Part shown: positions 29,101-33,993 of the stretch, piece by piece
Position numbering within the stretch: position 1 is the first letter of the stretch
How the letters are laid out: each line of letters opens with the position of its first letter
DNA from: Amoebophrya sp. A120
Lineage: Eukaryota; Protista; Dinoflagellata
NCBI GenBank assembly: GCA_905178155.1
Contig: CAJINV010000015.1
Span: forward strand, 1,728,538-1,792,537
Direction: 5' to 3'
DNA length: 64,000 nt
Notes under the pieces: generated by a model
What the model was told of the DNA's origin: nothing
Seen by the model: the letters and a program-made list of their open reading frames with translations, nothing else
Databases searched by the model: none
Translations under genes and position numbers: made by a program

Positions 29101-29865
29101 AATATGTCTGGGACTGGACGAAGAATGCAGATTTTTGTCATGCTGTTTGTGCATGATACAGAAGGTCTTGCACGGAAGTCCTAGCATCACAGGTTTCGAG
29201 AAGGTTCCGCAATGCCTAACCCGCATGAGAAATCCCCCATTTTGGTGACACGAAATGGGCATCCTTTGCTGCCTATGCATGACAGATTTGTGTGTGTTAT
29301 GAAATGCGCATCACAAGTTCGAAATCGAAACCTTCCCTGTGCTGTACCACGGTCTTGTTTCCAGACAAAACACCAGACATTTTTACGGTTGATAGCGGGA
29401 AGTCAAGAAGCTGTTGCAGTACCACCTGGCTCTGCAATCTGCCGGTGTCCTGACGCACGGAGTGACGGCGGAGTCGGTCTCGCAGATGGTGGCGAAAGAA
29501 TCCGATGGGTCGGTGAAGAAGTGGTGGAAGATCCGGAATTCTTGGGGACCGGAATGGGGCGAGGATGTATTTCTTCTCGAATTTTCATTGTTGATATGCA
29601 GTGATAGATGTGCAAAAATTATTCCCACCGTACCGAATACGACCTACTTTCTCATCCTAAATCCACATCACAGGGCCACTACCGCATCATCCGAGGAAAA
29701 GGCGCCTGCGGATTGAACACAATGGTCACTACGGCCACGGAAATCAAGAAGCATGGGAATGCGGAGAAGAACAGCATCCCCCTGTTGCCACCGAGAATCC
29801 CCGGGGTGGTGACCGTTTCGGAGGAAGATGCCGTGCTGCCCGAATCCAAGGAGTTCTACGTGTAA
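26119..29865 (+). CDS. Papain-family (C1A) cysteine protease, cathepsin F/L-like, ~448 aa; 8 introners and 3 GT-AG introns (26687-26881, 28385-28604, 29567-29673)
   Basis: I29-type prodomain ([35 protein letters not shown]), [39 protein letters not shown]; spliced CDS 1347 nt. Confidence 0.95.
26420..26577. mobile_element. Introner family D
   Basis: DR gttca/gtcca. Confidence 0.9.
26942..27160. mobile_element. Introner family J (TATGACA.TGCACAACTCCCCCTCCCCCTCATTTG)
   Basis: DR ggttg/ggttg. Confidence 0.92.
27285..27479. mobile_element. Introner family D, degenerate (starts TAC)
   Basis: DR tcgct/ttggt; restores [11 protein letters not shown]. Confidence 0.85.
27524..27789. mobile_element. 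Introner family C
   Basis: DR gacaa/gacaa. Confidence 0.92.
27854..28121. mobile_element. Introner family C
   Basis: DR cgtgg/tgtgg. Confidence 0.88.
28181..28331. mobile_element. Introner family D
   Basis: DR ccacc/ccacc. Confidence 0.92.
28694..28963. mobile_element. Introner family C
   Basis: DR acatg/gcatg. Confidence 0.9.
29084..29394. mobile_element. Introner family C
   Basis: DR ccggg/gcggg. Confidence 0.85.
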
Positions 29866-29879
29866 ACAAAACGTGATGA

Positions 29880-30131
29880 TATAACCCGCTCAGGTGTTAC
29901 AATCTCAAACGTTACAATAGAATATGGAAATCTGTGATGCAAGAGTGCATGATCTAGCCAACTCTCATGGGATTGCGCATGACAAGTTCCGGAGCCCCAA
30001 ACCCCACAACAATCCGGCGAAATTTGTATTGCAGAAAGTGGAACACTCTGCGAGGTTGTCATGCTCAACTTGCAAGACAAATCTCAGACTCTATTGTAAC
30101 GTTTGAGATTGTAACATCTGAGCGGGTTATA
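29880..30131. mobile_element. Introner family K (TATAACCCGCTCAG.TGTTACAATCTCAAACGTTACAATAGA) in the 3' UTR
   Basis: ~42-bp near-perfect TIR; DR gatga/gatga. Confidence 0.92.
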
Positions 30132-30257
30132 GATGAAGATGATGATTTTTTACGGAGTGGAAGGTTTTATAGATTTCTATCGAAGAGCAAGAGGGGGCCT
30201 ACGAAGTTTTTCAAATGCACTTGCGGATGTATTAATTTCTTCTAGAAAGAGCAGGAA

Positions 30258-31155
30258 CCTCCTGTGAAGGCCGTCGCCTGAGGAGATCTCCCGGTCGTAA
30301 CGTGGGGAGAAGCAGGCCGCATGCTTATCAGGGCAAGCGGTTAGTGGATCTGGTTGAAAGAGTGGCCCCAGTGAATGAGGGCCGCCGCCTCTCATGATGT
30401 CACCTAGTAGACCATATATAAGCGCTGGCCTTGTTGTTCTACGGAGAGCTAGCAGCAAGCAACTCCGTGGCCCATGCGCTTGCGTTGCTGCGCAGGTTCG
30501 CAACAAAAAGGCACGCCGCCGCTGTGCTGTTCGTTGCCTGCCACTCGGGTGCCGCGGCTGCGCCTCGCGCGTCCGCAGGACGCGACCGGGCAGCAAGCCG
30601 AGTGGCACCGCCGACGAGCGCAGCTGCGCTACCGTCAGGGGAGCGCAGCCACCCAGATGGCTGGCCACCCCACCCTCCCGGATGCCGCCCCTTATCCGAG
30701 CTCGGCCAAGCCCATACCGAGAATTATAGCGCCGACCGTTGATAGTGCGCGGCCACCCGGTTGGTCGGTACTATGAAGAGCGCGCCACGACAGGCGAGCC
30801 CTGTGGCACCACTGAAACGGCCACACAGCAACACACTGGCGGCGCACAACCGCCCACGAGTTGAGCGCCCCCAGACATGCAGATGCTTGCTGTGGCTACG
30901 CAGTGCAATTCCAAATCGGACGAAAATCTACGGCAGTCGTGGGGAGGTGTTGGTGTTCGCGAGGCACTACGTCCGACGCGCCTCCGAGCCGTGAGGGCAC
31001 TCGGAAGGGTAGGAGAGAGGGACCGAGAGTGCACCTGCTCCGGGTGCGGGAGATCCTGGCGAGACAGATCCCACAATGCACTGAGGCCCATCCGTCCCCT
31101 TGTACGTGCGATGTTTGTGCACAGTGGTCGGCATCGCCTGTGGCTTCGAAAATAA
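30258..31155 (+). mobile_element. GC-rich 898-bp insertion, probable 5'-truncated degenerate non-LTR retrotransposon
   Basis: 15-bp TSD TAGAAAGAGCAGGAA (30243-30257, 31156-31170); A-rich 3' end; absent from two paralogous copies of the site; RNase H-like and Cys-rich peptide remnants. Confidence 0.7.
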
Positions 31156-31271
31156 TAGAAAGAGCAGGAAGGGCTAGGGCAAGAAGTGCGTCATGTGAAG
31201 AAAAAAAGAACCCTTGTAAAATGCCACCAGAGTCCAAGGAATTCTACGTGTAAACAAAAGAACGTGACGAT

Positions 31272-31555
31272 TATCCTGAGTAAAAACGTACCCACACCAG
31301 AGTCAGGATGGGGAATCTGCTAGACAAATCAGCCAGCTTTGGTTGTTTGGCATGACAAGTTTGCCCGCGTAGTGTAGTGCTGTTGGAGCTAGTTTAGCAG
31401 CATTACAGATCTAGCCTCTCGCGCTGATTGGAGCATGACAAATTTCAAAACCGCATTAGAAAATGCTTCTCATGGGGCTCCGCATGAGAAACATTTTAAG
31501 CATGCAGAGTTGCATGACAACTATGGCGTGGGTACTTACGTTTTTACTCAGGATA
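31272..31555. mobile_element. Introner family A (very similar to 207-486), non-coding position
   Basis: DR acgat/acgat. Confidence 0.92.
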
Positions 31556-33993
31556 ACGATGATGATGATGATTTTTTACGGAGTGGAAGGTTTTTAGATT
31601 TCATCAATCGAAAAGGTCTACTACGAAGTTTTTCAAATGCACTTGCGGATGTATTTCTTCTAGAAAGAGGAGGAAGAGCAAAAGGGGCGTCATGTGAAGA
31701 AAAAAAGAACCGTTGTAAAATGTATGACCGGGCAGCAATGGTCTTGCGAGCTTGTGAGTCAAGGCCAAGGATGGTCGGTCTGTATTTTATGCATCGAGTG
31801 CAAGCTCTTCCTCAACGGTAACCAGAACCGAAGTCAGATCAGTGCAGCGGTGACGCAGGTTTTGCGTCATTTTTCTGTTGCTGAAGATTCTTCGAGTTCT
31901 CAGGGAGTCGCGCCCCTGCCGATGGTAGCCTATTTGATTCTGCATCTGTTTACCAGGGAGGCTCGTGTTGTGTTAACCTGGGGATGCGGGGGATTGATGC
32001 TATTTTGCCCTACGTGGCTTTGATTTCCCAGGGGTCAGGAGACGTGATGTCGTTCTGGCTGGGTACGTGGTTTTATTCAGACATCTGGAGAAGTAGAAAC
32101 GATCTCTACTTCGTACGGATGCGTATTCGATCTATTTGATTGGGTGATCCAATCATAGTGATTCGGGTGTTCCGATCACTGACTCTGGCTGTTTTGCTTC
32201 TTGCACTTGTTCGGCTCTGTGGCACTGGCGGTAACCAATCCGTTAAACCTAAGAGAGGACCGGCGTGGGACGCAAAGCACTGGGGGCGTTTGGTGGATGT
32301 TAAATTTTGATGGTTCTCAGTGCTAGGAGCCGAACTTGCGGCCAAGATGTCAAAACAACTGTGGTCAGTGATCGGAAATCTTCTCCTTTTATTTTCCGGC
32401 TGGGTATGCCGTTTTCAATACCATTCCTGATTTTTCCTTTCCGTGACTTTGTTTTCGCTTCAGGCCTTGAGGGTGAGAGCGCTAGGTTTCTGAGCAGACT
32501 TCGATATGTTAGGATGCCGTGCTGCCCGAATCCAAGGAATTCTACGTGTAAACAAAACGTGATGATGATCATGATGATGATTTTTTACGGGGTGGAAGGT
32601 TTTTAGATTTCAATCGAAAAGGTCTACGAAGTTTTTCAAATGCACTTGATGCGGATGTACTTCTAGGAAGAGCGGGAAGGGCAAAAGGGCCGTCATGTGA
32701 AGAAAAATATAGAACCGTTGTAAAATGCCTGCAGTACTATCATCCTGCCGTGGCCGCTCTAAGAAACTAAAGGTGAACCACAGTGCAAAGAAACTTAACG
32801 AAATTGATGCTGCATCGGTTTTTTGGTTCGATAGCCCTCTCCTTGACAAAGTTTCTCGATGTGAATCTAGTTTAGATTGTGAATCAGTTGTCTGAAGAAT
32901 GAGAAATGTGGATGGCAATTTTACCAATACAGTCGCGAACTTGATTTTTTTCTACATAGTACCAAGAGCTCAATTGGTCCTTCTGCGGACTGGCTTTTGG
33001 CTGCAGATTAATGAAGGTTAGTCTTTACAACTACCCTACAATTTATTACAAATATTTCGTTTCTCCCGAGGTAGAAGTGCCTCACCCTTCACCTGTCAAA
33101 CCATTACTTAATCTCCCTACCGGCCTTCAGAATCTAAATCTATTACCTCTCCACTAAAACCTACATCCCTAAATTTTTTTTGCGTCTCCGGTGCTCAGCT
33201 GCTCATGCGGGCGACTTTCCTCGAGTGAAGTAAAGATCTCTTTGCTTTACGGAAGCACCAGTGTCAGCAATCTAACCTTTTGAACTTTTGTGTAAAAAGT
33301 ACAGTACGATGAAAAAGTCAAATTGTTTGGCCAGTTTGTCGTCTCAAAAAGCGATTGGATATTTTCAAGAGCCCAAAAAAGAAGCTACTCCGACCGCTAC
33401 CGGCGAAGGCACGGCCTACGGAGCATCAACGTCAGGGTGACACGTCAAGCTAATTTCGAGGACCTTTTTCCCCTCTATTTCACGTACGCCTGAGTGTGAG
33501 CGAATCAGTGCTACACACCGTGAAAAAGGACAGCTGGCACCTTCGGTCTTGCCTGCGCCAGCCCAAAACTAAGAAGAGATTGTATGTGAAGCGAGGGCAA
33601 CTTCTTGAGAAAGTACGTCTAGGCCCAGGAGGTGCAGGAACAGCACGCAAACATAAGCACTTAAAAACCTCAACCTGGTCGAGTAGGAACCAACCTAATA
33701 AACCAAAGGACCAGGGCCAGCGAAAATTGGGTGCGCCTGGCGTCAAAAGAAGTTAGCCCTGAAGATGTTGTAAAGATTATTGCGACCACCATCCACGGTG
33801 CGTTGACATCGTGGTCAGAACTACAACCCTCATTATGAAACGAGCTTCCAAGAGACTTTCCACCACAGTTTCAGTTTCAACCGTTCTAGACAAAGCTACG
33901 AAAAGCCAAAAAACTACTTCTACGAGAACAGCACCAGATAGTGCTTTACTTGTTTCAAAATCTACCTCTAAGTCCAGCAAAACTTCTCCCAAG

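What the first reader, a model, noticed from the sequence alone, without database searches (positions are those of the whole stretch)
29826..32729. Natural experiment: three copies of one site, two filled by different families 1 nt apart and one empty
The protease 3' end (..PESKEFYV* + UTR) is present three times. Copy 1 has a family K element after ACGT-gatga (29880-30131). Copy 2 has a family A element after ACGTG-acgat (31272-31555). Copy 3 (~32555-32580) is empty. This shows the 5-bp DR is created on insertion and that insertion postdates the duplication. Two independent hits at nearly the same base suggest target-site preference shared between families.
Basis: seen in the sequence. Interest (0 to 1): 0.8.

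Follow-up and report, generated by a model that had tools for sequence, protein, structure and literature searches.

The report
Two jumping introns hit one spot
Two unrelated hairpin-shaped mobile introns sit one base apart in duplicated copies of a protease gene's tail and are both cut out of the RNA; such introns are known from a marine parasite, but their landing sites turn out to carry a family-specific three-base patch one DNA turn away on one side only, which likely reflects how an unknown transposase picks its target.

Summary
In detail: the last codons and 3' UTR of a papain-type protease occur three times; copy 1 carries element K, copy 2 element A, each between perfect 5-bp repeats, and copy 3 is empty. 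RNA-like contigs lack both, minus exactly one repeat, like the eight inside the coding sequence. The 5-bp repeat is a target duplication. A postdates the duplication; K probably does. New here: 177 other landing sites show no bias within the duplication but a sharp patch 11-13 nt outside it, on one side only: T-N-G in 115 of 177 (background 12%; both sides 2), replicated in a second assembly. The patch differs by family: W-R-A for A, an A at 12 nt for K-like families. Both A-rich rules favour this UTR spot, but only if the flank resembled copy 1's, and the odds of a 1-nt coincidence rise only from 1.3% to 2-5%. A shared hot spot is plausible, not shown. The scan noted introner-like introns in other genomes, not this rule.

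The parts
26119..29865 (+). Papain-family (C1A) cysteine protease gene, 448 aa after removal of 8 hairpin introns and 3 GT-AG introns
   Evidence: joints in RNA-like contigs; open frame; Pfam I29 E 6.8e-9, Peptidase_C1 E 0.0053 on single exons
29827..31225 (+). Copy 1 of the duplicated unit (last codons and 3' UTR of the real gene), interrupted by K and by the 898-bp insert
29863..29865 (+). Stop codon TAA of copy 1; its T lies 12 nt before K's target duplication
29875..29879 (+). Left copy of K's 5-bp target duplication (right copy 30132-30136)
29880..30131 (.). Element K: 252-nt TAT...ATA hairpin introner in the 3' UTR, removed with one repeat in RNA-like contigs (joint 29874>30132, 257 nt)
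   Evidence: relative L037:511-775, 83.5% over 249 nt
30199..30233 (+). 35-nt exact repeat shared with copy 2 (31621-31655); with a 31-nt exact repeat (30138/31564) it likely causes the contig joint 30198>31621
30258..31155 (+). 898-bp repeat-family insert, no terminal inverted repeat, A-rich 3' end, 15-bp duplication (30243-30257, 31156-31170); SINE/non-LTR-like (inferred)
   Evidence: other copies begin at the same edge (loose ends)
31221..31722 (+). Copy 2: non-coding fragment joined to copy 1's tail at a 4-5 nt microhomology; has a private 3-nt insertion in the A-tract after the stop codon
31267..31271 (+). Left copy of A's 5-bp target duplication (right copy 31556-31560); both carry the C private to copy 2
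31272..31555 (.). Element A: 284-nt TAT...ATA hairpin introner, removed with one repeat in RNA-like contigs X3 and X4 (joint 31266>31556, 289 nt; not seen in X6)
   Evidence: 10 other family members at 70-87%
31723..32512 (.). Single-copy filler between copies 2 and 3, origin unknown
   Evidence: no repeat in window; depth 27.7 in X1
32513..32727 (+). Copy 3: non-coding fragment with the empty site (GAT tract 32561-32581, triplet phase intact)
26420..29394 (.). Eight coding-region introners (26420-26577, 26942-27160, 27285-27479, 27524-27789, 27854-28121, 28181-28331, 28694-28963, 29084-29394), each skipped as element + 5 nt
8933..8979 (+). Two empty sites (8933-8937, 8975-8979) that hold introners in locus L033 of another assembly: the cleaner natural experiment for the 5-bp duplication

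Best explanation
K and A are hairpin-ended mobile introns (introners) that sit in two tandem copies of a protease 3' end, each between a duplicated 5-bp target, and both are missing from RNA-like contigs together with one repeat; they likely arrived as two separate transposase-type insertions after the duplication, and likely met at one spot because both families prefer an A-rich patch 11-13 nt outside the target, which the A-tract and T-tract around this microsatellite supply. Shown: anatomy; exact removal (element + 5 nt); 5-bp target duplication; A later than the duplication; a one-sided, family-dependent patch at other landing sites. Inferred: K later than the duplication (about 0.85). Inferred: insertion by a DDE transposase/integrase supplied in trans that makes a 5-nt staggered cut 10 nt, one helical turn, from a patch read by one subunit (about 0.65; no such enzyme was found here). 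Inferred: splicing guided by the terminal hairpin. Inferred: the patch, not chance, co-located these two hits (about 0.45).
For: Splicing: all 9 TAT/TAC...ATA elements of the protease gene (8 coding plus K) are skipped as element + 5 nt in contigs of X3 and X6 that also skip GT-AG introns; A likewise in X3 and X4. Duplication: frame open for 448 aa, against at most 165 aa if both repeats stay; 75 of 83 exact 5-bp repeats without a repeat filter; empty orthologous sites against L033. Patch: window, T at 13 nt upstream 27 of 47 and A at 13 nt downstream 26 of 47; 0 of 2000 random-position controls reach this. Second assembly, 66 and 73 of 130. Pooled T-N-G on at least one side 115 of 177 (background 11.8%), on both sides 2 (19 expected from the margins); T and A anti-correlated, Fisher p 2e-7; no excess at offsets of 1-3 nt among the 62 sites lacking it. 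It falls on either side within one + strand gene, so it acts at DNA level. Families differ (p 5e-10 at 12 nt, 1e-6 at 11 nt): C and B read T-Y-G; A reads W-R-A in 14 of 32 half-sites (background 5.5%; 4 of 10 window, 10 of 22 loci); K-like families have A at 12 nt in 12 of 17 (5 of 7, 7 of 10). With copy 1's flank, A's position ranks 2 of 229 under the A rule (the stop codon TAA falls exactly at 13-11 nt) and K's ranks 23 of 229 under the K-like rule, while C and B rules rank these places 148-212.
Against: In today's sequence both sites lack all four bases of the dominant rule, as do only 4 of 177 other sites. A's position ranks 111 of 225 with copy 2's present flank and 25 of 224 with copy 3's, so the good fit needs copy 2's 3-nt insertion to be younger than A. 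The A and K-like rules were found after the fact on 32 and 17 half-sites, and few of the 17 are true K. The modelled chance of two hits within 1 nt rises only from 1.3% to 2.0-4.7%. No transposase gene was found. The RNA label of X3, X4 and X6 is the tool's guess, they are one study, and contigs show neither strand nor level. The host organism was not tested.
Confidence: 0.7

Rival explanations
1. Two independent insertions, but their closeness is chance: introners are so dense that some paralog pair somewhere will be hit 1-2 nt apart.
For: Eight introners in 1347 coding bases, about 4 expected in three 229-nt units at that density. Uniform chance of 1.3% within 1 nt and 2.2% within 2 nt, in a genome type with about 30,000 such elements (PMC7789003, section 11). 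Poor fit of A's present flank.
Against: The two families found here are those whose rules favour this place, and the dominant families' rules disfavour it. The stop codon lands exactly on the A family's commonest triplet when the flank shared by copies 1 and 3 is used.
Confidence: 0.4
2. K is older than the duplication; copies 2 and 3 are empty of K because they derive from spliced, reverse-transcribed mRNA or lost it exactly.
For: Splicing removes K with one repeat, which recreates the empty site. The unit holds only last-exon sequence, so no intron tells DNA from cDNA origin. The three copies branch star-like.
Against: Head-to-tail arrangement with a microhomology junction and no poly(A). 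K's repeat is perfect and its arms 94% complementary while the copies differ by 8-10%.
Confidence: 0.12
3. The triplication is an assembly artefact or mixed haplotypes, or a deletion allele joins copy 1 to copy 2.
For: Joint 30198>31621 appears in all four runs laid, DNA-like X1 included. No long read. The left edge of the 898-bp insert is not bridged in the rows shown.
Against: The joint sits on a 35-nt exact repeat preceded by a 31-nt one, the shape that collapses in 31-mer graphs (inference). A's right junction is at single-copy depth like its neighbours (25.9 against 23.6 and 27.7). RNA-like contigs cross insert end, copy-1 tail and copy-2 start without a difference (31106-31266), and contigs run from copy 2 through copy 3. 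Copies differ by 8-10%.
Confidence: 0.05
4. The distal patch is set by a host feature (a DNA-binding protein, a modified thymine, chromatin) or by selection after insertion, not by the transposase.
For: One-sided fixed-offset targeting through a host protein is known for Tf1 and Sap1 (review passages, PMC7175516; the exact offset is recalled, the primary paper was not held). T at 13 nt is common to several families. Modified thymine in dinoflagellate DNA is recalled, not tested.
Against: The preferred bases differ sharply between families in the same genome. The signal is strand-symmetric within genes of one orientation and absent at other positions of the same codon phase, which argues against selection on RNA or protein.
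Confidence: 0.25

Closest known systems
Introner elements of Amoebophrya sp. A120 (Farhat et al. 2021, PMC7789003; seen: abstract, sections 10-12, passages, term search of the supplement)
   Same: Non-canonical introns of about 240 nt with terminal inverted repeats, 3-5 nt direct repeats and TAT starts followed by 7 nt and AAA (39 of 49 window elements, A included), mixed with GT-AG introns in one gene.
   Different: In the parts seen, the paper gives no target rule, treats the repeats as variable in length, and argues against general transposase-driven spread. Here the repeat is a fixed 5-bp duplication with a family-specific distal patch. K lacks the AAA of the A120 logo. UTR and pseudo-copy splicing were not mentioned in the passages seen.
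TIR elements with LTR-integrase-like ORFs in Amoebophrya A120 (Gozashti et al. 2025, PMC12130899; passages)
   Same: Offers a candidate class of enzyme: TIR-flanked introners with Copia/Gypsy-like coding sequence; 3-6 bp duplications are typical of such integrases (PMC10045372, section 11).
   Different: No autonomous partner of K or A was found here; the link is inference.
IS3EU/GingerRoot DNA transposons (PMC10045372; passages and section 11)
   Same: TA..TA termini, short inverted repeats.
   Different: Duplications are usually 6 bp there and 5 bp here; no transposase to compare.
Parallel intron gains in fungi, Daphnia and Micromonas (PMC4457414, PMC4540971; passages)
   Same: Independent gains at the same or neighbouring positions, with hot spots proposed.
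   Different: Those compare orthologues across species or isolates and name no sequence rule; here two families hit paralogous UTR copies in one genome.
Tf1 retrotransposon guided by Sap1 (review PMC7175516; passages)
   Same: Insertion steered by a landmark beside, not inside, the target.
   Different: Host protein with a long site and one element family; here a 3-base patch that changes with the family.

Membership tests
Amoebophrya-type introner elements (PMC7789003) | Inverted repeat joining the 5' and 3' ends into a hairpin | tested here: met
Amoebophrya-type introner elements (PMC7789003) | Direct repeat of 3-5 nt at the boundaries | tested here: met
   perfect 5-bp repeats at K and A; 33 of 49 window elements exact
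Amoebophrya-type introner elements (PMC7789003) | Removed from RNA without GT-AG ends | tested here: met
   joints 29874>30132 and 31266>31556 in RNA-like contigs, absent from DNA-like X1; contigs only, RNA label is the tool's guess
Amoebophrya-type introner elements (PMC7789003) | Repeated family, no coding capacity | tested here: met
   A: 10 other full copies; K: L037 at 83.5% and a terminus in L002; 252 and 284 nt long
A120 logo within that family | Terminus TAT + 7 nt + AAA | tested here: inconclusive
   met by A and by 39 of 49 window elements; not met by K and 9 others, nearly all TAT + purine starts without the A run
Amoebophrya-type introner elements (PMC7789003) | Host is Amoebophrya | not tested
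   inferred from the match to the published description; relatives of the neighbouring GST carried no names
IS3EU/GingerRoot | TA..TA termini | tested here: met
IS3EU/GingerRoot | Duplication usually 6 bp | tested here: not met
   75 of 83 exact at 5 bp, 0 at 6 bp
IS3EU/GingerRoot | IS3-like DDE transposase in an autonomous partner | not testable with these tools
   no genome held; five long ORFs of the window had no Pfam or PHROG hit
Papain family C1A protease (host gene) | I29 prodomain and Cys-His-Asn catalytic motifs in one frame | tested here: met

The most novel reading that the evidence does not exclude
These introners are spread by a set of still unidentified integrase-like enzymes that read a three-base patch on one side only, exactly one helical turn outside a 5-bp cut, each element family with its own code (T-Y-G, W-R-A, N-A-M). 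Where two codes overlap, as after an A-rich stop codon, unrelated families gain introns in parallel at nearly the same base.
Probability: 0.4. Interest if true: 0.72.

Novelty: new variant of a known kind. Interest (0 to 1): 0.5.

Why it matters
How these non-canonical introns spread is open: the describing paper found too few transposases and doubted transposase-driven spread (PMC7789003, discussion passage). A fixed 5-bp duplication plus a sharp, family-specific, one-sided target patch is the fingerprint of enzyme-guided integration. It sorts the many families into a few enzyme classes, says what to look for in autonomous partners, and can be tested at once on about 30,000 annotated elements. 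It would also give a sequence cause for parallel intron gain, for which hot spots have been proposed without a rule. The locus itself adds that these introns are cut out even from a 3' UTR and a non-coding duplicate, which fits a signal inside the element. Without the target rule the finding is an ordinary example of a known family.

Tried and rejected
No whole genome is held, so no genome-wide paralog or site survey. No holder is on record as RNA. More A and K sites could not be had: the records behind the loci are not searchable, and the A-terminus pattern gave 0 hits in viral and prokaryote contigs. The locus of a 98%-identical GST relative (P0001) could not be fetched. Rejected: a preference inside the 5-bp duplication (all five positions p > 0.1); codon phase as the cause of the patch (other positions of that phase flat); sloppy spacing of T-N-G; a link between element orientation and patch side (family C: 27/12 against 20/15); joint 30198>31621 as an intron (present in DNA-like X1); my first reading that all families share T-N-G (family A 1 of 10). 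The family labels merged A with C, and the B pattern failed; replace them. Rows dropped: 6 of 54 candidates (nested or implausible; one element added, giving 49, of which 47 exclude K and A); 145 loci yielded 130 elements with both ends, a repeat with at most one mismatch and enough flank; one misplaced K-like end (L065:521) dropped. Element spacing gave no usable period. Long ORFs elsewhere in the window: no Pfam, PHROG or Atlas lead. Earlier notes of the scan: none near, none by sequence.
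Full report
Observation. The three copies, both elements and their 5-bp repeats are at the stated places. Copy 1 is the true end of a gene; copies 2 (from 31221) and 3 (from 32513) are non-coding fragments, 90-92% identical, with 10, 10 and 14 private substitutions, so their order is unresolved. The site is a GAT microsatellite of 5, 6 and 7 triplets: the two hits are 1 nt apart counted from the left, 2 nt from the right.

Is the assembly real? In DNA-like run X1, contigs over K's two ends, A's right end and copy 3 lie at depths 23.6 to 36.7. RNA-like contigs cross from the insert's end through copy 1's tail into copy 2 with no difference. 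A joint 30198>31621 stands in all four runs laid, X1 included. It sits on 31-nt and 35-nt exact repeats and is most simply a collapse in contig building (inference). X1 may be the assembly's source and no long reads were at hand, so a small doubt remains.

What the elements are. The window holds 49 curated TAT...ATA hairpin elements with 5-bp repeats, 18% of its length. In contigs of X3 and X6, which also skip three GT-AG introns of this gene, all eight coding elements of the protease gene and K in its UTR are skipped as element plus exactly 5 nt. The result is a 448-aa papain-type protease. A is skipped the same way in X3 and X4, not seen in X6. These runs are one study, their RNA label is the tool's guess, and contigs show neither strand nor level. 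The anatomy matches the introner elements of Amoebophrya A120 (PMC7789003, sections 10-12 read): terminal inverted repeats, 3-5 nt direct repeats, TAT + 7 nt + AAA, met by 39 of 49 elements including A but not K. The host was not tested.

Target duplication and timing. Keeping both repeats breaks the frame (longest stretch 165 aa). Without any repeat filter, 75 of 83 family-C elements have an exact 5-bp repeat and none a 6-bp one. Locus L033 from another assembly carries two introners in an exon 154/157 identical to window 8.9-9.0 kb, where each 5-mer stands once. A postdates the duplication because a C private to copy 2 is in both halves of its repeat. Tandem order with a microhomology junction and K's perfect repeat make a later DNA insertion more likely.

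Target preference. Across 47 other window sites the five duplicated bases show no bias, but T stands 13 nt upstream in 27 and A 13 nt downstream in 26; 0 of 2000 random-position controls reach this. A scan by element terminus alone gave 145 loci of another assembly and 130 elements, with 66 and 73. Pooled, T-N-G at 13-11 nt occurs on at least one side in 115 of 177 (background 11.8%) but on both in only 2, against 19 expected from the margins: the patch is needed on one side. It lies on either side within a gene of one orientation, and offsets of 1-3 nt show no excess among the 62 sites without it. It is family-dependent: T-N-G in 89 of 114, 15 of 20 and 4 of 6 in three clusters, but 1 of 10 in family A. 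Family A has W-R-A in 14 of 32 half-sites (background 5.5%) and K-like families A at 12 nt in 12 of 17, each seen in window and loci separately; these two rules were found after the fact on small numbers. By eye, 1 of 3 single-contig A flanks among the loose ends has TAA at the same offset.

Does it explain the two hits? Against: both sites lack all four bases of the dominant rule, like only 4 of 177 others, and with copy 2's present flank A's position ranks 111 of 225. For: with copy 1's flank, which lacks copy 2's private 3-nt insertion, the stop codon TAA sits exactly at 13-11 nt from A's site, rank 2 of 229 (25 of 224 with copy 3's flank), and K's site ranks 23 of 229 under the K-like rule, while the dominant families' rules rank these places 148-212. 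The modelled chance of two hits within 1 nt is 1.3% at random and 2.0-4.7% with the rules. I put a shared landmark at about 0.45 and chance at about 0.4.

Mechanism. Most likely these are non-autonomous DNA transposons moved in trans by DDE integrase-like enzymes: a 5-nt staggered cut gives the duplication, one subunit touches the target one helical turn away, and the terminal hairpin guides removal of element plus one repeat from the RNA. Anatomy, removal, duplication and patch are shown; the enzyme, its contact and the splicing chemistry are inferred. TIR elements with LTR-integrase-like ORFs are reported in A120 (PMC12130899, passages). IS3EU/GingerRoot share TA..TA ends but usually make 6 bp, and related IS481-type enzymes show 10-bp steps in duplication length (PMC10045372, passages and section 11).

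Novelty. The elements are known, and parallel gains are known from fungi, Daphnia and Micromonas (PMC4457414, PMC4540971, passages). I did not find the distal, one-sided, family-specific patch in eight full-text searches or in passages of PMC7789003, PMC12130899, PMC9860276 (GC and linker bias only), PMC11282704 and bioRxiv 10.1101/2020.10.14.339549. Figures are not held, the supplement search of PMC7789003 found Table S7 but no text for Figs. S23 or S25, other supplements were not opened and bioRxiv ones are closed; flank logos there may bear on this. The scan's notes hold introner-like introns in other genomes but nothing on this DNA.

Verdict. Real, mostly a known family, with one unreported and directly testable property. 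Interest 0.5; new variant of a known kind.

Noticed in passing
window 30258-31155: 898-bp repeat-family insert with a 15-bp duplication, no inverted ends and an A-rich 3' end; other copies start at the same edge, so it has a defined 5' end (SINE or non-autonomous non-LTR type, inferred). RNA-like contigs cover it unspliced.
   Followed up: partly
window 8933-8979 against L033:139-373 and 421-672: Exon 154/157 identical between the two assemblies (acyl-CoA oxidase-like by eye, recalled), empty here and holding two introners there: presence/absence difference between close relatives.
   Followed up: yes
window 13000-26000 and 39230-53000: Long stretches almost free of introners with ORFs of 1638, 953, 1066, 1350 and 1103 aa; no Pfam or PHROG hit, no Atlas lead for the first. 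Why they escape invasion is unexplained.
   Followed up: partly
window 48263-48371: 109-nt element with perfect 22-nt arms and the same 5-bp repeat as A, at the junction of the 1350-aa and 1103-aa ORFs; likely an intron joining them into one gene.
   Followed up: no
run X1, joint 30131>31272: One contig at single-copy depth joins a K right end to an A left end (24 letters on the short side): possibly a K and an A side by side at another locus.
   Followed up: no
window 31621-34462: RNA-like contigs run without a gap from copy 2 across the filler and copy 3 into the next gene, a GST: read-through or overlapping transcripts; contigs cannot tell.
   Followed up: no
window 31723-32512: Single-copy filler that ends in AG just before copy 3 and holds an inverted repeat (32170-32196 / 32351-32377) without a direct repeat; no use of that AG as an acceptor was seen.
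   Followed up: partly
window 27285-27479: Older introner with a TAC start and two mismatches in its repeat, still skipped as element + 5 nt: removal tolerates decayed ends.
   Followed up: yes
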